DNA of 64,000 bases, taken from Escherichia phage Mansfield. The stretch lies in sequence record MK903282.1; one strand, written 5' to 3'. Positions 1 to 59,955 of this stretch are shown piece after piece (within the stretch, counting starts at the first letter, position 1; each line of letters starts with the position of its first letter). The position numbers and the translations under genes were made by a program. Below the pieces are notes generated by a model, which saw nothing but the letters and a program-made list of their open reading frames with translations, was not told the origin of the DNA and ran no database searches.

Positions 1-70
1 ATTTTAAAATCATTTAAATTAATTTTTTTTCATATCCTCATACTTATACTAAACTTATATTTATACGTAC

Positions 71-132
71 TATCCGTAAGATATAAGTAAAAACAAAGAC
101 TTGCGGCAATACGGATGATACGTCATGATACG
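71..132. repeat. additional copies of the CGTATCATC iteron
   Basis: TATCCGTA at 71-78; inverted TACGGATGATACGTCATGATACG at 110-132. Confidence 0.6.
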
Positions 133-297
133 CTTCGACCAGCCAACAGCGGCTAAGTCATTGATTTGCATAACAAGCGGCGAAAGGGATGGATTTCTTT
201 TATACGTATCAAACAGTACACCACGCACCACGGTACGCTATTCATTCAGCACTATGATTTGTGTACGTTTACAGCCAATTTGAACATCAATCTGCAC

Positions 298-326
298 TTG
301 AATATAATGTTCATTCATTGTATAAT
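298..326 (+). promoter_or_regulatory. sigma70-like promoter TTGAAT-N17-TATAAT
   Basis: TTGAAT at 298-303, 17-nt spacer, TATAAT at 321-326; sits inside the long ORF 166..834, so the true start is downstream. Confidence 0.45.
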
Positions 327-360
327 TCACACTATTAATTTGCACTATGGGATTTGCACT

Positions 361-834
361 ATGAGTCAAGATTATGTAGCAATGCCTGAAGACTTTGAAG
401 ACCCGCGATTTGCAGAGCATAATCAGGCATTATTCGATGAGTTCATTGACCTTGTTATTCAGGGCCATGACATGCGCGCAGCTTTTGCACTAGTATTTGG
501 CATGGAGGTTGCGACCGATAACTACACTGGCCAGCGAATCCTCTGCACGCAACGCAATCCGTACTACAAGATGCGCTACAAAAAGCGTATGGAAGAGATG
601 CCATTGAAGGAATTGTGGAGCGTAAAGAGTTCCATCCACAATTTAGTGAAGCTTGTGCGTGATCCAGAAGTCGCGGCGTCAGCCAAGCTTAATGCCATTC
701 GTGAACTGAATATCATCTACGGCATCACGATGATTGATGAGAATGGCAATAGTAAAATGGGCCGTTCCATGGACGATTTCTACAAGGATTTTGGAGAGGC
801 AGCCAAAGAGGGTGAGCAATTCTCCCGCCACTAG
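361..834 (+). CDS. hypothetical early protein (157 aa)
   Basis: ORF 166..834 trimmed to ATG 361 because the predicted promoter lies inside the longer frame; ATG is embedded in 11-mer copy 2; no catalytic motif recognised. Confidence 0.5.
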   Translation: MSQDYVAMPEDFEDPRFAEHNQALFDEFIDLVIQGHDMRAAFALVFGMEVATDNYTGQRILCTQRNPYYKMRYKKRMEEMPLKELWSVKSSIHNLVKLVRDPEVAASAKLNAIRELNIIYGITMIDENGNSKMGRSMDDFYKDFGEAAKEGEQFSRH

Positions 835-853
835 CCAATTTGCACTATAAAAC

Positions 854-887
854 GGCCCTAGAACACATTTTCTCCACTTCTAGGGCC
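854..887 (+). other. stem-loop (8-bp perfect stem GGCCCTAG/CTAGGGCC, 18-nt loop)
   Basis: Inverted repeat immediately after the 361..834 stop and 11-mer copy 3; no U-tract, so not a canonical terminator. Confidence 0.35.
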
Positions 888-948
888 ATCGGTAATACGA
901 CGGGGAAGGTTACAACCGTAAACGCGTTAGAAGGTGTATTATTATAAG

Positions 949-1212
949 TCATCTTTTAGTCACTTTACGTAACAATTTACGACCTTCCGCCGTCCAGTCG
1001 AACGACTCCACCAGCAGATTTGCACTATAACCTAAGACGATGCGCCCTTTCTCGTTATCGACCCGCCAACAAGTCTCGAATAGCATTCGATTTGCACTGT
1101 TAACTATCGCCGCAACGCGCGCTGGGTAAGCGCAATTTGCACTATGGTCGTAAAGGGATAAGGTGCGACCACTTCCGATGGATAACGTAGCGATGAGAAT
1201 AAGCGTATTCAT
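949..1212 (-). CDS. hypothetical protein (87 aa), doubtful
   Basis: ORF with GGTGG 3 nt upstream; carries three antisense 11-mer copies; CpG-rich. Confidence 0.3.
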   Translation of the reverse strand: MNTLILIATLSIGSGRTLSLYDHSANCAYPARVAAIVNSANRMLFETCWRVDNEKGRIVLGYSANLLVESFDWTAEGRKLLRKVTKR

Positions 1213-1263
1213 AAGCCACCAATTTGCACTATGAAAAGCGACCCCCGAAGGGCCGCCATTCGA

Positions 1264-1890
1264 TTAGATAATCTGGAATGTGTAGGACTTGTTGCCGAAC
1301 TCGAAGTTCAAGCGCCCAGCTTCCTTAAGCTTCATACGGAAGCGAATGTGCTTGCTATCCGGTAATCCCAGCGCGGCGAACGCTACGCGGACCGATTTAA
1401 ACTCGCCTACACCTTCGACCATAACGCCGTTACGGGTGAGACGCTTTTGCGCTACTTCCTTGTTATCCCAACTTTTTGCAATACCTTCGCTATTCGAACG
1501 GCGATGAGAAGGAGTTCCATTTTGCACTACGCAATTTGCACTATCGTTTAGGCCGCTTTTAACGAAGGCTTCATACTCTTCGTCGGTCATCGCGTCGAGT
1601 TCTTCCTGAGTCGGCTCGGCCTTTTTAACGACCGCACGCGCCTTATGCGTTTTTACATCGCTGGACACTTCCTCGCGCGACTTCGCGTCGGGAATGGGCG
1701 ATTCGTTGGACGGCGCATCGAGCGCGTTTAAGGACTCGATCAACGCGATTACGCGAGTCTCGGCGGTCCGGCGGTCCGCGAATTTCTTAATCGGCTTCGA
1801 ACCGGAATTTGCATTATAAAATGCAACGAGGTCGGCGGTCTTAGTTGCGATAACGTCGCCGCTAGTAGAGAAGCGATTTAAGCTAACCAT
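1264..1890 (-). CDS. hypothetical protein (208 aa)
   Basis: SD context TAGGAGTTTATT-ATG as in the paralog cassettes; no own promoter seen, likely co-transcribed with 1971..2255. Confidence 0.55.
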   Translation of the reverse strand: MVSLNRFSTSGDVIATKTADLVAFYNANSGSKPIKKFADRRTAETRVIALIESLNALDAPSNESPIPDAKSREEVSSDVKTHKARAVVKKAEPTQEELDAMTDEEYEAFVKSGLNDSANCVVQNGTPSHRRSNSEGIAKSWDNKEVAQKRLTRNGVMVEGVGEFKSVRVAFAALGLPDSKHIRFRMKLKEAGRLNFEFGNKSYTFQII

Positions 1891-1970
1891 AATAAACTCC
1901 TATTTGTTAGGGCGCTAGGCGCGAAAGAATTTTATTAAAGCGCCGCGCACGACGCTCTAAAAATCCTCTC

Positions 1971-2255
1971 TTACGCTTCGACGAGGGAGAAGGTCTCAAA
2001 TTCTTCTTCGCCCATAACGAGTAAAATATTACCGATTTCGACCGCTTCGAAGAAGTATCCGTTAACGTTTACTTCGAAGGCTTCGCGGTCCGATTCCGGT
2101 AACGCCGCGTAAAGTTTAAAAGCCTCGGCGACCGTTACCCCACCCGCTTCGATAGTTTGGTCTACGTTCGCGGCGTAGACTTCGGATAAATTTTGTTTTA
2201 CGCCGTAGTTCTCGACGATAGCGTTACGGATAGAAGAAACGTTAAGAATAGCCAT
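1971..2255 (-). CDS. acidic small protein, paralog family member (94 aa)
   Basis: TAGGAG SD 6 nt upstream; shares blocks (NVDxTIE, xNGyfyexxEIG) with 2889..3179; net charge about -13. Confidence 0.6.
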   Translation of the reverse strand: MAILNVSSIRNAIVENYGVKQNLSEVYAANVDQTIEAGGVTVAEAFKLYAALPESDREAFEVNVNGYFFEAVEIGNILLVMGEEEFETFSLVEA

Positions 2256-2323
2256 TTTAAACTCCTAGTTGGGAGAGGCGTTAACGACCTATTCGTTAAC
2301 TCATCCCGTCCCGATATGAGTAC

Positions 2324-2351
2324 ATTATAATATAGTGTAGAAAAAAGTAAA
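2324..2351 (-). promoter_or_regulatory. sigma70-like promoter (minus strand) TTTACT-N16-TATAAT
   Basis: Reverse complement of 2346-2351 is TTTACT and of 2324-2329 is TATAAT; downstream 5'UTR aligns with that of the 2889 cassette. Confidence 0.55.
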
Positions 2352-2395
2352 GCACTTTTTCGATAAAAATGCGATAAATTATTTTATCTTTTTTC

Positions 2396-2423
2396 TTTAC
2401 TTCTTCGTACACTCGCGTATACT
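2396..2423 (+). promoter_or_regulatory. sigma70-like promoter TTTACT-N16-TATACT
   Basis: Shares CTTTACTTCTTCGTACACT and TATATCGAGAGG blocks with the promoter at 2793. Confidence 0.55.
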
Positions 2424-2477
2424 TATTTATATCGAGAGGCGATGGGCCTCTTCTCTTCTACCATCGGGAGTTTTATT

Positions 2478-2780
2478 ATGGCTACTTTAATTTCTTCTAT
2501 CCTTACTTACGACGAAGACCGTTTAACCGTTCGCTCTCTTATCGCCGCCGTTAACGCGGAACTAGAATCTAGCGCCATTAAGGTCCGCGCCGTCGCCTTC
2601 ATCGGCCTTTCCTTCGACGATATTAAATACGCCGAACGTAGCGCCATCCGCTTCGCGAAGACCGACGACGAAGCCGTTACCCTTATCGAGACGGTTACGC
2701 CGCGCGGCGAAGCGTTAATTATCGTCGAGTATATCGACGTAGAAGGCGATAAGGCGTATAAATATTTTATCGCAAAATAA
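2478..2780 (+). CDS. acidic small protein, paralog family member (100 aa)
   Basis: ORF 2442..2780 trimmed to ATG 2478 (GGGAG SD 8 nt upstream); weaker similarity to the other two paralogs. Confidence 0.55.
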   Translation: MATLISSILTYDEDRLTVRSLIAAVNAELESSAIKVRAVAFIGLSFDDIKYAERSAIRFAKTDDEAVTLIETVTPRGEALIIVEYIDVEGDKAYKYFIAK

Positions 2781-2792
2781 CGAAAAAAGTGC

Positions 2793-2821
2793 TTTACTTC
2801 TTCGTACACTAAGACTATAAT
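2793..2821 (+). promoter_or_regulatory. sigma70-like promoter TTTACT-N17-TATAAT
   Basis: TTTACT 2793-2798, TATAAT 2816-2821; conserved 5'UTR then TAGGAG SD. Confidence 0.6.
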
Positions 2822-2888
2822 GTTTTATATCGAGAGGGGATGAGGTAGCGAATAGGTCGCTACCCTTCCGACTAACTAGGAGAATATT

Positions 2889-3179
2889 ATGATTACTTTA
2901 TCCGCTATCCGTTCCGCTCGCGTCGAAACTTCCGAAAACTCTAACGTATTTGGCGAAACGTTAGAGAGCGTTTATCTCTCTAACGTAGACGCGACTATCG
3001 AGTCTATTTATGAACCGATCAACTTCCTCGACCTTTACAAGTATCGCGACGAGGACGTAGTATCCTACCGCGTAACGATTAACGGCTTCGTCTATACGAT
3101 TACCGAAATCGGCGGCGAATATATCGCTGTACCGCAACTCGGCGGAGAGGTGACTTATTTTAAAATCGTCTCCTTATAA
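2889..3179 (+). CDS. acidic small protein, paralog family member (96 aa)
   Basis: TAGGAG SD; paralogous to 1971..2255; net acidic. Confidence 0.6.
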   Translation: MITLSAIRSARVETSENSNVFGETLESVYLSNVDATIESIYEPINFLDLYKYRDEDVVSYRVTINGFVYTITEIGGEYIAVPQLGGEVTYFKIVSL

Positions 3180-3199
3180 TACCCTTCCGTTACTAATAG

Positions 3200-3224
3200 G
3201 CCGCGCTTAGTCGCGGCTTTTCTT
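3200..3224 (+). terminator. rho-independent terminator
   Basis: GCCGCG / CGCGGC 6-bp stem, 6-nt loop, followed by TTTTCTT; 20 nt after the 2889..3179 stop. Confidence 0.6.
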
Positions 3225-3344
3225 CGTCCCTATCCCGATGCGCGTCCTACGCGAAAACTCCTTTATCCTTCCCTTCGTCGTCGCATAATCTTCTTCGAGA
3301 TGCGCCTTAGTTCGCATAAGAGGTATTACGTTAAATGGAGAACA

Positions 3345-3418
3345 TCGCGTAAGTCCTTGTTTTATATAGACACCTATATCGGACCGTTAGGGAGGGTCGC
3401 GTAAGTCGTTGTTTTATA
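3345..3418. repeat. 22-bp direct repeat x2 (TCGCGTAAGTC[C/G]TTGTTTTATA)
   Basis: Copies at 3345-3366 and 3397-3418, one mismatch, in non-coding DNA. Confidence 0.7.
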
Positions 3419-3543
3419 AAGGCGCAAAACTTTCCCTTCGTTCCGAACTAAAACGAGAAATATGCCGACCCTTCGACGAAAAATAGTACGCATGCGAAAT
3501 TACCGACATCTAGAATAATCCCCACCGATATTATCCTACACGC

Positions 3544-3597
3544 AATCATTAGCTTTCGAATCATTATGCTTCATATCATTATGCGTCGAATCATTCG
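3544..3597. repeat. four phased copies of ATCATT (period 14-16 nt)
   Basis: ATCATT at 3545, 3561, 3575, 3590, each flanked by similar G/AAATCATTATG context. Confidence 0.5.
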
Positions 3598-3695
3598 CTT
3601 TCAAATTGTAACGCTGGAAACTGTAACGGCGATTGATTATTGCGTTCGTGTGGTTTTTAGGGCATGGGTCTTTTGGTGCGTTTTGGTACTTGATG

Positions 3696-3808
3696 AAATT
3701 TGCAGTACACTAATCAAAATACGACACATTCGGTCCACTAACTTTTCAAAGAAAAAGTCCCAGACAGTACCGTACTATTTTGTGCCCACAGTAAATTTGC
3801 AGTACACT
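3696..3808. repeat. 16-bp direct repeat x2 (AAATTTGCAGTACACT)
   Basis: Copies at 3696-3711 and 3793-3808; shares the ATTTGCA core with the 11-mer array. Confidence 0.7.
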
Positions 3809-3842
3809 CCTGCGCGGCAGGCAAAATAAAGGGCCGCAGCAG

Positions 3843-3884
3843 CGACCCACGACCCACGACCCACGACCCACGACCCACGACCCA
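3843..3884. repeat. tandem heptamer (CGACCCA) x6
   Basis: Six perfect head-to-tail copies; followed by a 12-bp direct repeat CCCACTATTCAC at 3881 and 3909. Confidence 0.85.
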
Positions 3885-3913
3885 CTATTCACGGTTAAAG
3901 CACCATCCACCCA

Positions 3914-4309
3914 CTATTCACTCTTATGGGCATCACCAAAGCCATCCGCAATCTGGCTGATCAGCGATTCAATGGACACAGTTTTACCAATTGATCGAGC
4001 GGTAATAGCAAGCATATTATCAATCAAACCGCGATTGACTGCATATGTTTCAGGTTTTGATTCATCTCCAGGACAACCAAAAAGCTGGTCGCGCAAACTT
4101 TCGAGGGAACGCTCAATATTTTCCAGCTTCTCTTCTAAATCGGATTGGCGACGTAAAACCCATGTTAAGTCGCGGTTGCCGACTTCCAATCCATTATAAT
4201 CGCAAGATGGAACGTCAATTTTGATGCTGCCACCAAAGGCCATTCCGCTGCCTTTAGTATATGCGTGGTGAATAGAATCATTTTTATTTGACATATCATT
4301 ACCTTTCAT
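3914..4309 (-). CDS. hypothetical protein (131 aa)
   Basis: ORF; no motif recognised. Confidence 0.5.
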   Translation of the reverse strand: MKGNDMSNKNDSIHHAYTKGSGMAFGGSIKIDVPSCDYNGLEVGNRDLTWVLRRQSDLEEKLENIERSLESLRDQLFGCPGDESKPETYAVNRGLIDNMLAITARSIGKTVSIESLISQIADGFGDAHKSE

Positions 4310-9450: not shown

Positions 9451-9483
9451 ATGAATAAAATATTAACACATAATTGGAAAGTC

Positions 9484-10911
9484 ATGTACCAGTTGAATCC
9501 TGCTTTAAGAGAAGTTTGGAAGACGAAAGCGCGATACAAAGTAATATACGGCGGTCGTGCATCTTCCAAATCGCATGATGCCGCTGGTTTTGCTATTTAT
9601 TTGGCGGCAAACTTTAAATTAAAATTCCTTTGCGTTCGACAATTCCAGAACAAGATTTCTGAATCAGTATATACGCTATTAAAAGATAAGATAGAGATTT
9701 CTGATTTTAAAGACGAGTTCAACTTATTAAAGAACTCTATTGAACACAAAAGAACAAAATCTGAATTCTTATTTTACGGTATCGCACGCAACGTTGACGA
9801 AATCAAATCAACAGAAGGCGTTGATGTTCTTTGGCTTGAAGAAGCGCATGCACTGACTGAAGAACAATGGGACATTATTGAGCCGACCATTCGTAAGGAA
9901 GGGTCAGAAATATGGATCATATTTAACCCTGATGAAGAGGCCGATTTCGTCTACCAGAACTTTGTCATGCGACCGCCGAAGAATGCCATCGTTAAGAAGA
10001 TCAACTGGCAAGACAACCCATTTTTGTCACAAACAATGCTGGATGTTATTGCTGGCATGTATGAGCGCGACCCGAAAAAGGCAGAACACGTTTATGGCGG
10101 AGTACCGAAGACAGGCGGCGACAAGTCGGTCATCAACCGTGCATTCGTCAAGGCCGCGCTAAACCTCCACAAACACCCTACGCTGGGATGGAGCTTGTCA
10201 GGGTCTAACCGTATAGGCTTTGACGTGGCGGACGACGGCGACGACTTAAACGCCACAGCATTTGTCACGGGCAACGTATTGCGCGGCATCAAGACATGGG
10301 AAGGTCTGGAAGATGAATTGCTTAAGTCCGCAAGCGGAGTTTGGAAAGACGCATTGACATTCGGCGCATCAATTACCTATGACGCAATCGGTGTTGGTGC
10401 ATTTGCTGGTTCAAAATTTGATGAGCTTAATGAGTATGCAATCCATGAAAATCCAACATTCCCAAGAATCGAATTTAATGCGTTCAACGCGCAAGGTGCT
10501 GTTGATGATCCTGATGATGTTTTCCTTGAGTTACCACACGTTGAAATACTCAATAAAGACCATTTCGCAAACATAAAAGCGCAAAAATGGACTGAGATTG
10601 CCGAACGATTCAGGAAGACATATGAATATGCGACAGGGCAAGCCGTATATCCGACCGATGAGTTGATTTCCATCGACACAGACGGCATTCCAGAACTTGG
10701 GATTCCTGCTTGGTCTGCGGAAGAGATTGAGACGTTTCTTTTTGAGATGTCAGCGCCGCGCAAAGATACGTCTGTACTTGGCAAGTTCAAAGTTGAATCG
10801 AAAAAAGATATGGCAAAGCGTGGAGTCAAATCGCCTAACAAAGCGGACGCCGCAATCATGGCATTGATGAAACCAATTGTTGCAGCATCCGGCTTCTTCT
10901 CTAACCTTTAA
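9484..10911 (+). CDS. terL: terminase large subunit
   Basis: N-terminal ATPase with Walker A-like GGRASSKS and Walker B-like VLWLEE; C-terminal nuclease-like half; start moved from 9451 to 9484. Confidence 0.9.
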   Translation: MYQLNPALREVWKTKARYKVIYGGRASSKSHDAAGFAIYLAANFKLKFLCVRQFQNKISESVYTLLKDKIEISDFKDEFNLLKNSIEHKRTKSEFLFYGIARNVDEIKSTEGVDVLWLEEAHALTEEQWDIIEPTIRKEGSEIWIIFNPDEEADFVYQNFVMRPPKNAIVKKINWQDNPFLSQTMLDVIAGMYERDPKKAEHVYGGVPKTGGDKSVINRAFVKAALNLHKHPTLGWSLSGSNRIGFDVADDGDDLNATAFVTGNVLRGIKTWEGLEDELLKSASGVWKDALTFGASITYDAIGVGAFAGSKFDELNEYAIHENPTFPRIEFNAFNAQGAVDDPDDVFLELPHVEILNKDHFANIKAQKWTEIAERFRKTYEYATGQAVYPTDELISIDTDGIPELGIPAWSAEEIETFLFEMSAPRKDTSVLGKFKVESKKDMAKRGVKSPNKADAAIMALMKPIVAASGFFSNL

Positions 10912-11729: not shown

Positions 11730-14105
11730 ATGAAAATTCTTGGCATAAAACTCTGGGAGAAGACGCAACCAGAAGCCGAACCAGCGGAGATGCCGCCAGG
11801 CGACCCATTGGCACCGTTTGAACGCCTTGAAAGGCGCGGCAGCGGTCAACGCTGGGAAAAGACTGAAAGCAATCGACCGACCTTTAAAACGGTTGATGAC
11901 TTCCCTTTATATGAACCTGATATTAATGGCGACGGTGTTGCTATCATAAAAGGTCGTTCAGTCGATTCCGCAACAGTATCCAAAAAGGTTATGGATAATG
12001 CCTTGAAGAACATCAGTTCAGAAGGGCAGGTCAACCCATACACAGTCCCTATTCAACTTCAAAACTGGTATTTGTCACAGTCATTCATCGGCTATCAAGC
12101 TTGTGCCATCATCGCACAGCACTGGCTGGTGAACAAGGCGTGTTCCATGGTAGGCCGCGATGCGGTCCGTAAAGGCTGGGAAGTCAAATCCAGTTCTGAG
12201 TCAGAATTATCAGTGCAGGCCAGCGAACGCCTAAAGCAAATTGATAAAGAATTTAATATCAAAGAGCACTTAGTTGAAGCCGAACGATTCAAAAATATTT
12301 TTGGTATCCGCGTCATCATATTTGATGTGCGTAGTGATGACCCAGAATACTACAGCAAACCTTTTAACATTGATGGTGTGACAAAGGGGTCTTATAAGGG
12401 AATCATTCAGGTTGACCCTTATTGGATGATGCCATTTTTGACGTCTGAAAACACCGCCGACCCTGCATCACAGCACTTCTATGATCCAGAATACTGGGTG
12501 ATCAGTGGACAACGTTATCATCGAAGCCACCTGATCATTTTGCGCAACGATGAGCCAGCTGATATTCTCAAGCCGACTTATATTTACGGCGGCATTCCTT
12601 TGACTCAGCAGATTTATGAACGCATCTATGCCGCTGAGCGTACCGCTAACGAAGCGCCATTGCTGGCGATGTCCAAGCGTACAACCACGCTGCGGACCGA
12701 CGTTGACAAGGCGATTGCCAATGAGAGGTCTTTTGCTGAACGTCTGATGATGTGGATTAAGTACCGCGACAACTATGCAGTCAAAGTGCTTGGTCAAAAA
12801 GAAGAGATGGACCAGTTCGACATCAACTTGTCAGACTTCGATAGCATCATCATGAACCAGTACCAGCTGGTGGCTGCAATCGCAAAAGTTCCGTCAACCA
12901 AACTTCTTGGGACTTCGCCAAAAGGCTTTAACGCCACTGGTGAATTTGAGATGGTCAGCTATCACGAAGAGTTGGAAACTTGCCAGCAGCATGACCTGAC
13001 AAAAATTCTCGACCGCCATTACAAAATCCTTCTCAAATCAGAAGGGGTGGAAGTCGATGTTAAGGTCGCATGGGAACCAGTTGGCTCACTTACTGCTACT
13101 CAACTTGCAGAAATCAACGACAAGCGAGCTAACACTGGCAAAACTCTTATTGATGCTGGCGTCATTTCTCCTGATGAAGAGCGCGACCGCATCAAAGACG
13201 ACAAAAACAGCGGCTACAACCGTCTGCCGGAAGACGCAGCAGAAGAAACCCCAGGGATGTCTCCAGAGAATATGGCATTGCTTGGCAAGTCTGCTGGTGA
13301 AGTCCTGCAAGGCAAGGCCGATATTGAACAGGCGAAAGCTGATGTCGTTAAGATGGGCGGCCAGTTCTATAGCGAAACAGGTATTATGCCAGAAGGTGCC
13401 GCGCGTGGTGAGTTGGCGGAAAACCCTGACAAAGCGCCTGTCGAAATCAACATGGACGATACCGATGATGAATCAAGCCATCAGGTTGATGTCCTAACGC
13501 AGTTGAAAGAAGGTCTGGAGGGTATTGCTGATTATTACCTGAAAGAAGGTCAGGATGTGGATTTTGACCCTCAAAAAGATTCACGGTCGGTACAACCGTC
13601 TACCCTTCCAAGCGTCAAAGGTAATGTCGTTAACTTACGACACAACGTTGGAAAGATGGATGCAGCATCGTTACCTAAGATGAAGTTGCACGGGCTGATT
13701 CTTGGGATTGAGAATCCTCGCAACAGCATCCGTAGAGGGAACAGCCTTGACGGTGAATGGGCAGTCAAGATGCCGCATCACTACGGATTCATCAAGGGCA
13801 CTAAGGGCGCGGACGGCGATGAAGTCGACTGCTTTGTTGGTCCAAATATGAAGTCGCCGAAGGTCTTTATCGTTAACCAGAATGATAATTACTCTGGCGA
13901 GTTTGATGAACACAAGTGCATGCTTGGATTCGATTCAGCAGAAGAAGCGAAAGAAGCTTATCAAGCATCATTTGGTAACGGGTGGAACGGATTTGACTCA
14001 ATCCACGAATTGGATGTAAACTCGTTCAAGGAGTGGTTGAAGGGTGATTGCTCTCAAGCATACGGAGCACTCAATAATCCTACTAATTCACCGAAGCAAG
14101 GTTGA
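11730..14105 (+). CDS. portal protein with C-terminal pyrophosphatase-like extension
   Basis: Large protein directly after terminase with acidic C-terminal region; start trimmed to 11730 (GGTGG SD); C-terminal ~150 aa contain HYGFI...DGDEVDC (13779-13832). Confidence 0.7.
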   Translation: MKILGIKLWEKTQPEAEPAEMPPGDPLAPFERLERRGSGQRWEKTESNRPTFKTVDDFPLYEPDINGDGVAIIKGRSVDSATVSKKVMDNALKNISSEGQVNPYTVPIQLQNWYLSQSFIGYQACAIIAQHWLVNKACSMVGRDAVRKGWEVKSSSESELSVQASERLKQIDKEFNIKEHLVEAERFKNIFGIRVIIFDVRSDDPEYYSKPFNIDGVTKGSYKGIIQVDPYWMMPFLTSENTADPASQHFYDPEYWVISGQRYHRSHLIILRNDEPADILKPTYIYGGIPLTQQIYERIYAAERTANEAPLLAMSKRTTTLRTDVDKAIANERSFAERLMMWIKYRDNYAVKVLGQKEEMDQFDINLSDFDSIIMNQYQLVAAIAKVPSTKLLGTSPKGFNATGEFEMVSYHEELETCQQHDLTKILDRHYKILLKSEGVEVDVKVAWEPVGSLTATQLAEINDKRANTGKTLIDAGVISPDEERDRIKDDKNSGYNRLPEDAAEETPGMSPENMALLGKSAGEVLQGKADIEQAKADVVKMGGQFYSETGIMPEGAARGELAENPDKAPVEINMDDTDDESSHQVDVLTQLKEGLEGIADYYLKEGQDVDFDPQKDSRSVQPSTLPSVKGNVVNLRHNVGKMDAASLPKMKLHGLILGIENPRNSIRRGNSLDGEWAVKMPHHYGFIKGTKGADGDEVDCFVGPNMKSPKVFIVNQNDNYSGEFDEHKCMLGFDSAEEAKEAYQASFGNGWNGFDSIHELDVNSFKEWLKGDCSQAYGALNNPTNSPKQG

Positions 14106-15886: not shown

Positions 15887-15896
15887 AGAGGAAGTT

Positions 15897-16034
15897 ATGC
15901 AAAAGATTATTCAGTCACGTTATGTTAAAGTGCGAAATATTAATTGCAACTCTCTGCTTTCTTGGAAATGGGCCGTTTACGATTCGATGCTGATTGGCGT
16001 TTTAGTTGCTGGAGTGCTTTTTAATATTCACTGA
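15897..16034 (+). CDS. small hydrophobic protein (45 aa), tentative
   Basis: Not in the ORF track; AGAGGAAG SD 4 nt upstream; predicted single TM helix. Confidence 0.3.
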   Translation: MQKIIQSRYVKVRNINCNSLLSWKWAVYDSMLIGVLVAGVLFNIH

Positions 16035-16077
16035 ATCGCCTGGCAATGGATTGCCGCAGGATTTTACGCGTATAATG

Positions 16078-16341
16078 ACGTATCATCCGTATCAAGTAAG
16101 TATTTGTTTTCAAAAGAATCTTACGTATGATACGGATGATACGCGTTGCCGCGATACTTTATAGGAATTCAAATAAATTAATTTAAAATTATATATCTAA
16201 TTTAATTTTATTTTTTTATAAACTCTTATATATGAAAAGTATCCGTATCATCCGTATCATCCGTAGCACACCAGTGATAGCGCGGCTTATACACCGATAC
16301 GGATAAAAATACGCCTCATTTTATCCGTATCATCCGTATCA
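16078..16341. repeat. iteron cluster (9-mer unit CGTATCATC) in AT-rich region
   Basis: Forward copies 16078-16094, 16241-16265 (three tandem units), 16322-16341; inverted copies 16128-16143 and 16295-16304; flanked by a >90% A+T tract at 16175-16240. Confidence 0.75.
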
Positions 16342-16398
16342 CACTAATTAAGGCGCGGCTATATCGGTTGTTATACATATTCAAACCATAATTATTGT

Positions 16399-16427
16399 TT
16401 GCCTAAGTTTTTTTCATTAGATATAAT
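16399..16427 (+). promoter_or_regulatory. sigma70-like promoter TTGCCT-N17-TATAAT
   Basis: Upstream of the scaffold/capsid genes. Confidence 0.4.
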
Positions 16428-16456
16428 ACACAATACTTATTTGAGGGTGGATGCGA

Positions 16457-55892: not shown

Positions 55893-56975
55893 ATGGCTAG
55901 TTTAAGAGAAGAAGCAAAAATAATCGAAGAGTTTTTGACAGAACTCCAAAGAGGCATTCCAGAAGATGAACGCGTCATGACCGTGTTTGCGCCTGAAGCA
56001 ACGGTGCAGACCGACGAGCGCGGCAAAAAGATTAACAGCAGCTTCTGGCCTAAGCCTTGGAAGCTTGGCAAGCCGCTGATGCAACATCAGAACGGTTACG
56101 CCTGCATAAGTTCAATGCGTAAGTCTCCCAACCCAAAGACAGGCGAGATGCGATACTGGCGCACGGAATCGGCTTTCGGTCATGGCATGGCGATGATGGT
56201 CGACGACATCGGTCACGGTAAAGGGTCCAAAGGCGATTTAGATTTAGAGTTCTTTTTCGAGAGTCTGAAGCCAACCGTCATTGTTGAGACTTCACCGAAC
56301 AACCACCAGCTGTGGTATTTCTTTAAAGACCCGATTGACCATCTTATCCAGTTCAAAGCATTCCTTGGGTCTTTCGTAAACATGGTACTCAAGAAGGGCG
56401 GCGACAACACGATTAAAGACGTGACGCGCGTGGGCCGTGTTCCTGGTTGCATCAACAACAAGCGTGTGACTCACGACGGCCCTTACAAATATGTCGATGA
56501 GAACGGCGACCCGTTCCGCTGCCGACTTGTCCATGCAGACTATTCTTTGCGATACACAATCGAAGAGATTTGCCAAGCCTTCGGTTTCCACGTCGTTATG
56601 CCGCAAAAGCGTGAAATTCAAATCGACGTTGACGAATACAAATATGATGCTGTTTGGTATAAAATAGCCCAGCAAATCCTTGCTCGCAATAAGATGGGTG
56701 AAGGGTCCGATGGCGATGTTGTTGAAAACATGTCAGGTAAATGCCGCATCATCTGCCCTTGGGGTGAAGAGCACACCAACGGCGACCCATATGGCGCTTA
56801 CTTTCGCGGCCCAATCCCTGGCGCTGAACATGAATTCGTTTTCGGTTGCGCTCACGACTGTCACCGGAAAGGTGAAGGTAAGAAAGGCTGGACAGCTTTT
56901 GTTGAAGCAGTAGTCATGCCTTATATTGAGAATCAACTTGATATGATAAATCGTCGCGCAGGTGGCATAAAATAG
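55893..56975 (+). CDS. primase-polymerase (AEP/prim-pol-like) with C-terminal zinc ribbon
   Basis: AEP-like motifs MVDDIG, SPNNHQLWYF, RVPGCINNK; Cys/His cluster CPWGEEH...CAHDCH. Confidence 0.6.
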   Translation: MASLREEAKIIEEFLTELQRGIPEDERVMTVFAPEATVQTDERGKKINSSFWPKPWKLGKPLMQHQNGYACISSMRKSPNPKTGEMRYWRTESAFGHGMAMMVDDIGHGKGSKGDLDLEFFFESLKPTVIVETSPNNHQLWYFFKDPIDHLIQFKAFLGSFVNMVLKKGGDNTIKDVTRVGRVPGCINNKRVTHDGPYKYVDENGDPFRCRLVHADYSLRYTIEEICQAFGFHVVMPQKREIQIDVDEYKYDAVWYKIAQQILARNKMGEGSDGDVVENMSGKCRIICPWGEEHTNGDPYGAYFRGPIPGAEHEFVFGCAHDCHRKGEGKKGWTAFVEAVVMPYIENQLDMINRRAGGIK

Positions 56976-58284: not shown

Positions 58285-59955
58285 ATGTCAATTGAACATG
58301 ACAATCTTCCAGAGGATACAGGTGATGAATTTGGTGCAATCTTTGACGAAATTCAAGACGCTGGTGTTTCAGAAGAAATGCAAGCGGCAGAGCAGCAAGG
58401 CACCAGAGCTAAAATCAGCCTACAGCACAAGGCTGTTGAGAAAGATGCAGAGCGCATGGAATGCTACGGTGAAGAAGACTTGGTTGAAAGGGCACGTTTG
58501 CTCGCCTCACTTCAGGTAATCAAGTTCCCTCACTACAAACCGACGAAAGATGATTTTGTTCTTCAGGCGGACCGGACGAGTGACATGAACCGTTATGCGG
58601 TTTTCGACGCGTTGTTTGATAAGGGAAGTGGCGTTGTTCCATTCCCTCACAAAGATACTTTTCGTGGACGCTTAGTCGACCATCGCGGCGAAACTTTCAC
58701 CGACCGGACGTTGGAAGTTACAGAGATAGTTGCCGCTGTCGATGCAGCAGGACTGTCCAACCCAAACTCACGTCAGGTCGCTCAATCCTATAAGGAATGG
58801 GCCATGCGTTATCAGCGCGACGACCTGATGGACTTCTTCTACAAGAAGCTGCCTGAATGGGACGGTACTGCGCGCATTGAGAAATACCTTATCGAGCTAT
58901 TCCGACCGTTCGATACAGAGTTAAACCGACAAATCGGTGTGTATTTTTGGCTATCGCTCTATAACCGCCTGACCAACCCTGGCTGTCAAGCGCCAATCTC
59001 CATCGCGCTCATCGGCGGCCAGAACGCAGGGAAGAGTTATTTTAGCAAGCTGCTTTGCGAAGCTATTATGAACGACCGCCACGCAACACCGATTCCGTTG
59101 AACTTGGCCGCGCAGAACTTCAACCCGTTCTTGCGAGCTATTACGGGTCGCTCAATTATCGCGAACGTTGGCGAGATGACAGGCTTTAAAAAGGCTGACA
59201 TCGAAAACATGAAAGCATTCCTGACTAAGACGGAAGATGACCTGGACTTCAAATTTGAGGACACGCAGGTTAAACCACGCCAGTGGATTGCTATCATGGA
59301 CGGCAACGAATACGCAGGCATGCAGCGTGACGACACGGGCAACCGTCGTGTATACCCTATATTTGTTGGCCAACTCGCTGACAAGGACGGGCAACCGAAC
59401 TGGTCTAAAGACTTCCAAGCTGACCTTTCCACTTTGAAAGAAGACGTTTGGCAGCTGATGGCTGAGTGCGCTGCTTGGATGGAGAAGCACGGCGAAGCAG
59501 GTTACAATGCCTTTGTTGGTGAAACGTCTCGCATGCTTACTGAGTTCAGTAAGAACGAAATGGAACGCGCTCGCGGCGTTATCCGTGATGAGATGGTCGA
59601 CAACGACCTTGTTGAAGTCGTCATCACCGCGCCTTATGACCGACATCACAGCGGACGCTGGCACATCACCAGTGGTGCAATCGCTATGGGATTCAGAGCT
59701 AAGTGCGGCAAGTCGCCTTTCTCACGTACCCTTGCGCCGCACATGTCGAAGCTTGGATTTGAGCCTGCGACCTATCGCAACCAGCGCGGTTACTTTACGC
59801 CGCTGATTAAGAATGAAGCAGGGGAATACATTTCTGACCTGATGACTATTTTGGCGTATCTTATCCGCGACGAATCTGACCCTGAAGATATTGAATTCTT
59901 GAAGAAGGTTATTGAGCGCAAACGTTCTTTAGGAAGAGATAAGGATGAATTCTGA
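58285..59955 (+). CDS. SF3-type replicative helicase (primase C-terminal/VirE-like)
   Basis: Walker A LIGGQNAGKS; size and arrangement typical of phage primase-helicase C-terminal half; AGGAGG SD. Confidence 0.65.
   Translation: MSIEHDNLPEDTGDEFGAIFDEIQDAGVSEEMQAAEQQGTRAKISLQHKAVEKDAERMECYGEEDLVERARLLASLQVIKFPHYKPTKDDFVLQADRTSDMNRYAVFDALFDKGSGVVPFPHKDTFRGRLVDHRGETFTDRTLEVTEIVAAVDAAGLSNPNSRQVAQSYKEWAMRYQRDDLMDFFYKKLPEWDGTARIEKYLIELFRPFDTELNRQIGVYFWLSLYNRLTNPGCQAPISIALIGGQNAGKSYFSKLLCEAIMNDRHATPIPLNLAAQNFNPFLRAITGRSIIANVGEMTGFKKADIENMKAFLTKTEDDLDFKFEDTQVKPRQWIAIMDGNEYAGMQRDDTGNRRVYPIFVGQLADKDGQPNWSKDFQADLSTLKEDVWQLMAECAAWMEKHGEAGYNAFVGETSRMLTEFSKNEMERARGVIRDEMVDNDLVEVVITAPYDRHHSGRWHITSGAIAMGFRAKCGKSPFSRTLAPHMSKLGFEPATYRNQRGYFTPLIKNEAGEYISDLMTILAYLIRDESDPEDIEFLKKVIERKRSLGRDKDEF

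What the first reader, a model, noticed from the sequence alone, without database searches (positions are those of the whole stretch)
15887..16456. AT-rich iteron region interrupting the structural gene cluster, with related copies at the window start
A 570-bp non-coding gap between structural genes contains at least five copies of a 9-mer iteron (CGTATCATC) in both orientations, including three perfect tandem units at 16241-16265, adjacent to a >90% A+T tract; the same motif appears inverted at 110-132. Iterons next to a DNA-unwinding-like tract are the classic architecture of a replication origin, plausible here because the phage encodes its own primase and SF3 helicase, but they could equally be activator sites for late transcription. 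A 45-aa hydrophobic ORF (15897..16034) lies at the left edge.
Basis: partly seen in the sequence, partly recalled or inferred. Interest (0 to 1): 0.6.

Follow-up and report, generated by a model that had tools for sequence, protein, structure and literature searches.

The report
Likely phage replication origin with iterons
The gap in front of the head-protease gene of this E. coli phage (genus Wifcevirus) looks like a replication origin: short repeats face each other across the most easily melted DNA in the window, and the phage encodes a matching initiator helicase.

Summary
The 9-mer CGTATCATC occurs 6 times in the window against 0.41 expected: five copies at 16079-16334 and one at 114-122.

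The repeats lie in opposed arrays around a tract that is 90-98% A+T (16153-16233). This tract is the least stable duplex in the whole 64-kb window.

The window is a Wifcevirus genome, and its base 1 is the physical left end. The copy at the window start is the right half of a second, paralogous module. The left boundary of the 3.7-kb direct terminal repeat (DTR) falls inside that module.

The same two-module design is seen in Pbunavirus 14-1 and Serratia phage MyoSmar; three more relatives have at least one such module. Each lineage has its own repeat sequence.

The phage encodes a full-length structural homologue of the staphylococcal pathogenicity island (SaPI) Rep1 initiator helicase, with a hypervariable C-terminal domain, and a conserved RepB-type primase. 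SaPI origins have this same layout.

Published transcription-start mapping in 14-1 finds only the head-gene promoter in the homologous gap, not a start site in the repeat or A+T part.

Best reading (about 0.6): a Rep-bound origin or cis-replication element. No replication or binding data exist. It is a new member of a known kind; duplication and the DTR link are unusual.

The parts
15897..16034 (+). Small conserved ORF (45 aa, hydrophobic C-terminus). It marks the left border and is not part of the repeat module.
   Evidence: It is annotated as gp024 in WFH. It aligns in position and pattern with 14-1 gp21, billy_59 and MyoSmar_080.
16039..16066 (+). Terminator-like hairpin CCTGGCAATGGATTGCCGCAGG followed by ATTTTA. 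It contains the first GCCGC box.
   Evidence: Read directly from the sequence. WFC differs in this stretch but can still form a CGGCAA/TTGCCG stem followed by a T run. The scan tool did not call it, so this is inference.
16069..16096 (+). Left outer iteron array: CGTATAATG(A), CGTATCATC, CGTATCAAG.
16117..16143 (-). Left inner iteron array, read on the minus strand: CGTATCATC, CGTATCATA, CGTAAGATT. It forms a perfect 16-nt inverted repeat with 16079-16094.
   Evidence: inverted repeat I5. The 46-nt block 16118-16163 is 93% identical to WFH 67511-67556, which lies 27 nt upstream of the DTR boundary.
16146..16153 (+). GCCGC box (TTGCCGCG) at the left edge of the A+T core.
   Evidence: Boxes in the same orientation lie left of the core in WFH module 2 and in both 14-1 modules.
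16153..16233 (.). A+T-rich core (90-98% A+T), the candidate DNA-unwinding element.
   Evidence: Least stable duplex of the whole window, z about 5. Apart from a one-base T-run length difference in FEC19, identical in the five Wifcevirus genomes aligned.
16235..16270 (+). Right inner iteron array: (A)GTATC, CGTATCATC, CGTATCATC, CGTAGCACA. It points the opposite way to 16117-16143.
   Evidence: inverted repeat I1 (22 nt, 95% complementary, arms 100 nt apart).
16280..16286 (+). GCGGC box (GCGCGGC), the mirror image of the boxes on the left.
16295..16304 (-). Single reversed iteron (ATCCGTATCG on the minus strand).
   Evidence: inverted repeat I9.
16317..16343 (+). Right outer iteron array: CATTTTATC, CGTATCATC, CGTATCACA.
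16353..16359 (+). Second GCGGC box (GCGCGGC), about 70 nt upstream of the -10 hexamer. Its counterpart in 14-1, billy and MyoSmar reads CAGTCGCGGC.
16399..16427 (+). Sigma-70-type promoter of the head protease/scaffold gene (TTGCCT, 17-nt spacer, TATAAT). It is a separate element next to the repeat module.
   Evidence: Matches 10 of 12 consensus positions. The -10 context TATAATACA is shared with MyoSmar and Pbunavirus. Its homologue in 14-1 is the experimentally mapped start site P014 at 13257.
1..135 (.). Right half of the paralogous module 2, cut by the physical genome end. It comprises A+T core remnant 1-60, degenerate iterons 66-80 (+), GCGGC box 102-108 and a reversed iteron array 105-132. 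The left half lies beyond the window end, at about 67.4-67.6 kb in WFH.
   Evidence: Bases 1-101 and 5-85 are the second least stable duplex of the window.
58285..59955 (+). Candidate initiator: a VapE-like helicase of the SF3 type with a hypervariable C-terminal domain that looks like a winged helix.
   Evidence: Pfam PF05272, E 1.6e-28. Sequence match to PDB 7PDS (SaPI1 Rep1), E 4e-11. Foldseek match to 7PDS, E 3e-16, about 480 aligned columns. The C-terminal domain is 25% identical across 55 homologues, against 59% for the ATPase.
55893..56975 (+). RepB-type DNA primase, the candidate priming enzyme.
   Evidence: Pfam PF16793, E 3e-36. It is 64% identical to 14-1 gp73.

Best explanation
The non-coding stretch 16035-16398 is most likely a replication origin or cis-replication element of the SaPI/P4 type. 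It is one of two paralogous modules in the genome.

**Proposed mechanism (inferred).**
1. The phage's VapE-like Rep helicase (58285-59955) recognises the 9-bp iterons (core CGTATCA) through its divergent C-terminal winged-helix-like domain.
2. Rep assembles on the opposed iteron arrays on both sides of the A+T core (16153-16233).
3. Rep melts the core and loads itself onto the DNA.
4. The RepB-type primase (55893-56975) and the phage's own Pol III-alpha-like polymerase start DNA synthesis.

The sigma-70 promoter at 16399-16427 is a separate neighbouring element that drives the head genes.

**Shown here.**
- The repeat architecture.
- The extreme duplex instability of the core.
- The paralogy of the two modules.
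- Conservation of the design with lineage-specific iterons.
- Homology of the helicase to a proven iteron-binding initiator.

**Inferred only.** Binding, melting and initiation at this site. Also open is whether module 1 is a full second origin or an auxiliary Rep-binding site like the crr element of phage P4.
For: 1. **Repeat architecture.** The iterons are highly enriched and clustered. They are arranged as opposed arrays 100 nt apart around the A+T core (repeats I1 and I5).

2. **Duplex stability.** The core is the least stable duplex in 64 kb, and the half-module at the window start is the second least stable.

3. **A second, paralogous module.** WFH 67400-67720 has the same order of blocks.

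4. **Conservation of the design with changed repeats.**
   - Pbunavirus 14-1 has GGWAATTWGG clusters at 12818-13159 and at 59040-59566.
   - MyoSmar has TTACTTTTCG-type repeats at both sites.
   - Relative L067 has ACGTATCAT, and L068 has TATCCGCAAGA in at least 9 copies.
   - BcepF1 has repeats with a TAGTTA core.

5. **Position relative to rep.** Module 2 lies just downstream of the rep gene in 14-1, L068, MyoSmar and BcepF1, as in SaPIs (PMC9371898).

6. **The initiator candidate.** The 556-aa protein is a VapE-like helicase that matches SaPI1 Rep1 (PDB 7PDS) by sequence and over its full length by structure.

7. **The specificity domain.** The C-terminal domain has the helix-strand-helix-helix-strand-strand order of a winged helix. 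It is the most divergent region: 25% mean identity against 59% for the ATPase, and 56% against 86-88% in the closest relative, whose iteron also differs.

8. **Self-sufficient replication genes.** The phage encodes a RepB-type primase, a Pol III-alpha-like polymerase and accessory helicases.

9. **Transcription data.** In 14-1 the homologous gap has no start site or termination site in its iteron/A+T part.

10. **Sequence conservation.** The module is 97% conserved across Wifcevirus, including the A+T core.
Against: - No replication, marker-frequency or DNA-binding data exist for any member of this phage group. The argument rests on architecture and homology.
- Module 1 lies about 42 kb from rep, inside the head-gene cluster. 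That is not where SaPI-type origins lie.
- The fold match of the C-terminal domain alone to winged-helix proteins is not statistically significant (best E 0.087).
- In 14-1 module 2, a mapped sigma-70 start site (P040 at 59399) arises right at the tandem iterons. The repeats may therefore also, or instead, act on transcription.
- In Wifcevirus and MyoSmar the terminal-repeat boundary lies inside module 2. A role in packaging or end formation cannot be separated from a replication role.
- One relative (L071) has no large gap within 4 kb downstream of rep.
- GC skew follows gene orientation and does not mark an origin here.
Confidence: 0.6

Rival explanations
1. The repeats are binding sites for a transcription regulator. 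An activator or repressor would bind them to control the head-gene promoter at 16399-16427 and, at module 2, the first promoter of the terminal repeat. The A+T tract would act as an UP element or bent DNA.
For: - The right-hand arrays lie 60-190 nt upstream of a strong sigma-70 promoter. That promoter's homologue is a mapped start site in 14-1.
- In 14-1 module 2, start site P040 (59399) begins just after the tandem iterons, which sit in the promoter spacer.
- The iteron contains TATCAT, a 5-of-6 match to the -10 hexamer.
- Earlier papers guessed at promoter or sigma-factor motifs in this region (PMC3008698).
Against: - The motif occurs at only two loci, although the genome has many promoters.
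- At least ten sites in mirror-image arrays around the least stable DNA is more than a single promoter needs.
- The module 1 homologue in 14-1 yields no start site other than the plain sigma-70 promoter. Such promoters of 14-1 are active in E. coli without phage factors.
- No dedicated DNA-binding regulator was identified, whereas a Rep homologue with a variable DNA-binding-type domain is present.
Confidence: 0.17
2. The modules are recognition sites for genome-end formation or packaging. Terminase or an end-processing factor would bind the repeats and cut in the A+T core to create the boundary of the 3.7-kb terminal repeat. Module 1 would be a second or vestigial site.
For: - The WFH terminal repeat is exactly 1-3701 = 67583-71283, and its left boundary falls in the A+T core of module 2, 27 nt after the left arm.
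- The PhageTerm-predicted repeat of MyoSmar (1-3559) also ends inside its module 2.
- The sequence around the boundary, TTAACTCC|ATTTTGAA, is conserved in relative L067.
Against: - Module 1 is not a genome end, and it lacks the AACTCCATTTTG boundary sequence.
- The right boundary of the repeat (about 3673) has no iterons.
- Pbunaviruses keep both modules. They are reported to lack a terminal repeat (PMC12390725), and the 14-1 record does not start at a module.
- No small terminase gene was annotated next to the large terminase gene.
Confidence: 0.13
3. The region encodes a structured non-coding RNA, and the inverted repeats are RNA stems.
For: - There is a perfect 16-nt inverted repeat at 16079-16094 / 16128-16143.
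- A TATAAT hexamer lies at 16071-16076.
Against: - No Rfam family comes near its threshold, and there is no tRNA.
- The left arm of the inverted repeat is not kept in module 2.
- No start site was mapped in the equivalent part of 14-1.
- The TATAAT is simply a variant iteron, CGTATAATG.
Confidence: 0.03

Closest known systems
SaPI / PICI replication origins with Rep self-loading helicases (SaPI1 Rep1, PDB 7PDS; SaPI5 PriRep5, PDB 7OLA)
   Same: - Short iterons lie on both sides of an A+T-rich centre, with at least two per side pointing in opposite directions.
- The initiator is an SF3-like hexameric helicase with a C-terminal DNA-recognition domain, and a separate or fused primase is present.
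- The origin lies just downstream of rep; here this holds for module 2 in 14-1, L068, MyoSmar and BcepF1.
- The phage protein is the best PDB match to Rep1 by both sequence and fold.
   Different: - The host is a virulent 68-kb myovirus, not a satellite island.
- The iterons are 9-11 nt rather than 5-6 nt.
- There are two paralogous modules. The one in this finding lies in the head-gene cluster, about 42 kb from rep.
- The primase is RepB-type rather than the SaPI Pri type.
- One module coincides with the terminal-repeat boundary.
Phage P4 ori plus crr, bound by the alpha primase-helicase
   Same: - Two separated iteron loci are bound by one SF3-type helicase-initiator with a C-terminal DNA-binding domain (from general knowledge; not tested here).
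- This gives a precedent for module 1 being an auxiliary cis-replication region.
   Different: - P4 alpha carries primase, helicase and DNA-binding domain in one polypeptide; here the primase is a separate RepB-type protein.
- The iteron sequence is unrelated.
- P4 has cohesive ends, not a long terminal repeat.
Bacillus phage SPP1 oriL / oriR
   Same: Two origins with the same initiator-binding repeats next to an A+T-rich segment, one of them far from the replication genes (from general knowledge).
   Different: The SPP1 initiator G38P is not a helicase and recruits a DnaB-type helicase through a loader. There is no homology to the proteins here.
Phage T7 primary origin and the end-proximal phiOL / phiOR elements
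   Same: Origin-like elements (a promoter plus an A+T-rich stretch) occur both internally and next to the terminal repeat, and they are tied to concatemer processing (from general knowledge). This is a functional analogy for the link between module 2 and the repeat boundary.
   Different: T7 uses its own RNA polymerase promoters, not iterons and a Rep protein. Its terminal repeat is 160 bp, not 3.7 kb.

Membership tests
SaPI/PICI-type Rep-iteron origin | Short iterons, at least two on each side of an A+T-rich centre, pointing in opposite directions | tested here: met
   Arrays at 16117-16143 (-) and 16235-16270 (+) flank the 90-98% A+T core, with outer arrays at 16069-16096 and 16317-16343.
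SaPI/PICI-type Rep-iteron origin | The element encodes a Rep helicase homologous to the SaPI Reps (SF3-like ATPase) | tested here: met
   Pfam PF05272, E 1.6e-28. Sequence search hits 7PDS at E 4e-11. Foldseek hits 7PDS at E 3e-16, with a TM-score of about 0.6 normalised to the target, over about 480 columns.
SaPI/PICI-type Rep-iteron origin | Rep carries a C-terminal winged-helix domain that sets iteron specificity | tested here: inconclusive
   The secondary-structure order fits a winged helix, with pLDDT about 85-90. The top PDB hits for the domain alone are all winged-helix folds, but the best E-value is 0.087. The domain is hypervariable and differs between lineages with different iterons. 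No binding data exist.
SaPI/PICI-type Rep-iteron origin | The origin lies immediately downstream of rep | tested here: not met
   Module 1 (16.2 kb) is about 42 kb from rep (58285-59955). Module 2 is about 7.6 kb downstream of rep in WFH. It lies directly downstream of rep in 14-1, L068, MyoSmar and BcepF1.
SaPI/PICI-type Rep-iteron origin | Rep binds the iterons, melts the A+T region, and replication starts there | not testable with these tools
   This needs gel-shift or footprinting assays, permanganate probing, and marker-frequency sequencing.
P4-type ori/crr pair | Two separate iteron loci with the same repeat | tested here: met
   The same iteron occurs at module 1 and module 2 in Wifcevirus, in 14-1 and in MyoSmar.
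P4-type ori/crr pair | A single polypeptide carries primase, helicase and DNA-binding domain | tested here: not met
   Pfam found no primase domain in the 556-aa protein. The primase is a separate RepB-type gene.
DnaA-dependent or lambda-type iteron origin | DnaA boxes, or an initiator gene that contains the origin | tested here: not met
   There is no perfect TTATNCACA in the module. One-mismatch hits occur at chance level across the window (65 found, 63.7 expected). The module is intergenic.
Terminal-repeat boundary or packaging site | The site coincides with a physical genome end | tested here: not met
   Module 1 is internal. Only module 2 holds the repeat boundary, and the boundary sequence AACTCCATTTTG is absent from module 1.
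Sigma-70 promoter region | A mapped transcription start within the repeat or A+T part | tested here: not met
   In 14-1 the only start site in the homologous gap is P014, 65 nt upstream of the gene and outside the repeat part. There are no data for Wifcevirus itself.

The most novel reading that the evidence does not exclude
The Rep-bound module at the junction between the unique region and the terminal repeat may both start replication and define the left boundary of the 3.7-kb direct terminal repeat. Origin melting or fork initiation in the A+T core would then be the event that creates or marks the genome end. That would give a replication-coupled mechanism for making long terminal repeats, which is unexplained for phages such as T5 and SPO1. 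Module 1 in the head-gene cluster would be a second origin that has lost the cutting signal.
Probability: 0.15. Interest if true: 0.75.

Novelty: new member of a known kind. Interest (0 to 1): 0.5.

Why it matters
- **No origin is known for this phage group.** Wifcevirus and its Pbunavirus relatives include widely used therapeutic Pseudomonas phages and E. coli phages reported to replicate very fast. The only published proposal I found rests on GC skew and points elsewhere (PMC12390725).
- **The prediction is specific and testable.** It names two cis elements, the Rep protein and the primase, which opens the way to replication studies, minimal replicons and phage engineering.
- **It offers a natural test of protein-DNA co-evolution.** Each lineage has its own iteron and a hypervariable Rep C-terminal domain.
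- **It gives a lead on end formation.** One module coincides with the terminal-repeat boundary in two genera, which bears on how long terminal repeats are made.

Tried and rejected
- **GCGCGGC as a special motif.** The 7-mer occurs 65 times in the window, 15 times the simple expectation. A maximal-order Markov model expects 58, and many GC-rich k-mers are equally enriched. This is therefore a composition or codon effect, not a site-specific signal. The mirror-image GCCGC/GCGGC boxes inside the modules remain only a descriptive observation.
- **Structured RNA or tRNA.** Rfam gave nothing near threshold and ARAGORN found no tRNA.
- **A sigma-70 promoter in the A+T core.** This was predicted for JG024/PB1 but is not supported by start-site mapping at module 1 of 14-1.
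- **DnaA boxes.** None above chance.
- **GC skew as an origin marker.** It follows gene orientation only.
- **Fold search with the C-terminal domain alone.** The hits are winged-helix folds, but none is significant.
- **Scan of viral contigs for the 16-mer CGTATCATCCGTATCA.** Multi-copy hits came only from Wifcevirus genomes; the other 50-odd hits were single chance matches.
- **The rule that the origin lies right after rep.** It does not hold everywhere: relative L071 has no large gap within 4 kb downstream of rep.
- **Conservation within the genus.** The alignment is too uniform (97% identity) to separate functional positions.
- **Technical limit.** Only some fetched loci reached the Python sandbox, so several genome-wide scans were run with the search tools instead.

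Full report
**What the window is**

The region is 98-99% identical to E. coli myophages of the genus Wifcevirus, such as FEC19, WFH, ECML-117 and kaset. Base 1 of the window aligns to base 1 of the WFH record.

WFH carries a direct terminal repeat (DTR) of exactly 3701 bp: 1-3701 equals 67583-71283 at 100% identity (Korf et al. 2019, PMC6563267). The window therefore starts at the physical left end of the genome. Its DTR ends near 3673, the length reported for the close relative Mansfield (PMC6753283).

The finding lies between two groups of head genes. Upstream are the 802-aa minor head protein (probably the portal), the Mu-F-like protein, the head fibre and a 45-aa ORF. Downstream are the head protease/scaffold and the major capsid protein.

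**Checking the observation**

- CGTATCATC occurs 6 times in the window, against 0.41 expected. Five copies lie at 16079-16334 and one at 114-122.
- A weight matrix built from the copies finds 9 sites of 12 bits or more inside the two repeat regions and only 4 in the remaining ~63 kb.
- The units are spaced 9-10 bp apart and form five groups:
  - 16069-16096 (+)
  - 16117-16143 (-)
  - 16235-16270 (+)
  - a single unit at 16295-16304 (-)
  - 16317-16343 (+)
- The two inner groups form a 22-nt inverted repeat, 95% complementary, with 100 nt between the arms.
- Between the arms lies a tract of 90-98% A+T at 16153-16233. By nearest-neighbour free energy it is the least stable duplex in the whole window, with z about 5. 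The second least stable segment is the first ~100 bases of the window.
- The 45-aa ORF at 15897-16034 is conserved in three genera. The non-coding part is therefore 16035-16450.

**The copy at the window start is half of a second module**

In WFH, the junction between the unique region and the right DTR copy (67400-67720) has the same order of blocks as 16060-16270:

1. GCGTATAATGACGTA
2. CTTACGGATGATACGGATGATACGCGTcGCCGCtATACTTTATA, which is 93% identical to window 16118-16163
3. an A+T-rich core
4. iterons

The DTR boundary falls inside that A+T core, 27 nt after the left arm. Bases 1-135 of the window are the right half of this module.

In Serratia phage MyoSmar, the PhageTerm-predicted DTR (1-3559) also ends between the two iteron arms of its module 2. 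The boundary sequence TTAACTCC|ATTTTGAA is kept in a 75%-related uncultured phage (L067). It is absent from module 1.

**Conservation across genera**

The long gap in front of the protease gene is kept in MyoSmar (470 nt) and in Pbunavirus (about 510-550 nt). It is absent in Xanthomonas phage FoX6. Each lineage has its own repeat, placed in both orientations around an A+T-rich core:

| Lineage | Repeat |
|---|---|
| Wifcevirus | CGTATCATC |
| Relative L067 | ACGTATCAT |
| Relative L068 | TATCCGCAAGA, at least 9 copies |
| MyoSmar | TTACTTTTCG |
| Pbunavirus | GGWAATTWGG |
| BcepF1 | TAGTTA core |

Pbunavirus 14-1 also has two paralogous modules. One lies at 12.8-13.2 kb. The other lies at 59.0-59.6 kb, in the roughly 960-nt unannotated gap directly after the helicase gene gp75. 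Within each lineage the two modules share the same repeat, so they appear to co-evolve as targets of one protein.

GCCGC boxes lie to the left of the core and GCGGC boxes to the right in all lineages. GC-rich k-mers are enriched throughout the genome, so I give these boxes little weight.

**The protein side**

- The 556-aa product of 58285-59955 has a VapE-like domain.
- Its only PDB match by sequence is 7PDS, SaPI1 Rep1 bound to DNA (E 4e-11).
- An AlphaFold model (mean pLDDT 88.7) matches 7PDS best, at E 3e-16 over about 480 columns of a roughly 450-residue chain.
- SaPI Reps are self-loading helicases that also act as initiators. A C-terminal winged helix binds iterons. The origin lies just downstream of rep, has an A+T-rich centre, and has at least two iterons on each side pointing in opposite directions (PMC9371898). 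That is the architecture seen here.
- The C-terminal domain of the phage protein (431-510) has the helix-strand-helix-helix-strand-strand order of a winged helix.
- Searched alone, this domain retrieves only winged-helix folds among its top hits (LOTUS domains, RosR, HSF, PadR, MecI/BlaI). None is significant; the best E-value is 0.087.
- It is the fastest-evolving region: 25% mean identity across 55 homologues against 59% for the ATPase. In the closest relative it is 56% identical against 86-88% for the rest, and that relative's iteron also differs.
- The RepB-type primase (55893-56975) is much more conserved, at 64% identity to 14-1.
- The phage also encodes a Pol III-alpha-like polymerase and other helicases. 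It therefore plausibly needs its own origin and initiator.

**Transcription evidence from a relative**

ONT-cappable-seq of 14-1 (Putzeys et al. 2024, PMC10914365; supplement of the bioRxiv version) maps one start site in the homologous gap. This is P014 at 13257, a sigma-70 promoter whose -10 context TATAATACA is shared with the window's TTGCCT-17-TATAAT at 16399-16427.

No start site or termination site was mapped in the repeat or A+T part. This contradicts the older computational promoter call in the A+T core (PMC3008698).

In module 2 of 14-1, however, start site P040 at 59399 arises right after the tandem iterons and reads into gp76. Transcription and the repeats are therefore not fully separable.

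**Weighing the readings**

*Origin or cis-replication element (0.6).* This reading explains the most:
- the mirror-image arrays around the most meltable DNA;
- the restriction of the motif to two loci;
- the lineage-specific repeats paired with a variable DNA-binding-type domain in a Rep homologue;
- the position of module 2 next to rep in four lineages.

Its weaknesses:
- there is no direct evidence;
- module 1 lies in the head-gene cluster;
- the winged-helix assignment is not significant.

*Regulator sites (0.17).* This is kept alive by the neighbouring promoters and by P040.

*End formation or packaging (0.13).* This is kept alive by the DTR boundary in module 2 of two genera. It does not explain module 1. 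It also does not explain Pbunaviruses, which keep both modules but are reported to lack a DTR (PMC12390725).

*Structured RNA (0.03).* This is unlikely.

**Comparison with known systems**

The module works like a SaPI/PICI origin, and the helicase is a member of that Rep family by sequence and fold. As an origin of that family it meets the iteron/A+T-core and Rep criteria. It fails the criterion of lying directly downstream of rep at this locus. Binding and initiation are untested.

The two-locus design recalls P4 ori/crr and SPP1 oriL/oriR. The link to the terminal repeat recalls the end-proximal origin-like elements of T7.

**Novelty**

My literature searches found no description of an iteron origin in Wifcevirus, Myosmarvirus or Pbunavirus. 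The only published origin proposal rests on GC-skew minima at 42-52 kb in a Pbunavirus.

I rate this a new member of a known kind. Two features are unusual: the origin-like module is duplicated inside the head genes, and its paralogue coincides with the DTR boundary.

Noticed in passing
window 3180-3914: This 735-nt non-coding stretch holds the right boundary of the terminal repeat (about 3673) and is packed with other repeats. These are a 15-nt-period unit ATCATTATGC... in 4 copies (3545-3619), TCGCGTAAGTCSTTGTTTTATA in 2 copies (3345, 3397), AAATTTGCAGTACACT in 2 copies (3696, 3793) and tandem CCCACGA in 6 copies (3843-3891). None of the CGTATCATC iterons occur here.
   Followed up: partly
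window 280-362; L067 15137-15219: Two overlapping strong sigma-70-like promoters (TTGAAC-17-TATAAT and TTGAAT-17-TATAAT) are followed by tandem ATTTGCACTATG repeats just before the first gene of the terminal repeat. A relative has 4-5 copies of the same TGCACTA unit. This could be an operator array.
   Followed up: no
L002 27486-27502 (WFH 67486-67502); L069 about 3633-3649, minus strand: The exact 17-mer GGTGCGCCGCGACTGGG occurs in module 2 of both WFH and Serratia phage MyoSmar, although the two show no other evident sequence similarity across the module (read by eye). It ends in CTGGG, the core of the non-sigma-70 promoter motif reported for 14-1.
   Followed up: no
L002 27135-27340; L008 39000-39140 and 39600-39860; L069 3330-3880: A G/T-rich tract lies to the left of module 2. 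In 14-1 and MyoSmar a C/A-rich tract lies to its right. This is a mirror-image strand-composition bias around the module.
   Followed up: no
whole window: GCGCGGC occurs 65 times, about 15 times the mononucleotide expectation, on both strands and mostly inside genes. A maximal-order Markov model expects 58, and related GC-rich k-mers are similarly enriched. This points to a composition or codon-usage effect rather than a specific site.
   Followed up: yes
window 15897-16034: The 45-aa ORF with a hydrophobic C-terminus is conserved in position and pattern (FFSWK...D...IG) in Pbunavirus (14-1 gp21, billy_59) and MyoSmar_080. It is probably a real small membrane protein of the head-gene block.
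   Followed up: partly
window 16287-16432: Three one-mismatch DnaA-box-like 9-mers (TTATACACC, TTATACATA, TAATACACA) lie within 150 nt on the right side of the module. There is no perfect box, and across the window such matches occur at chance level.
   Followed up: partly
window 9451-10911: The large terminase gene stands alone on the + strand between blocks of minus-strand genes. No small terminase gene is annotated next to it in WFH.
   Followed up: no
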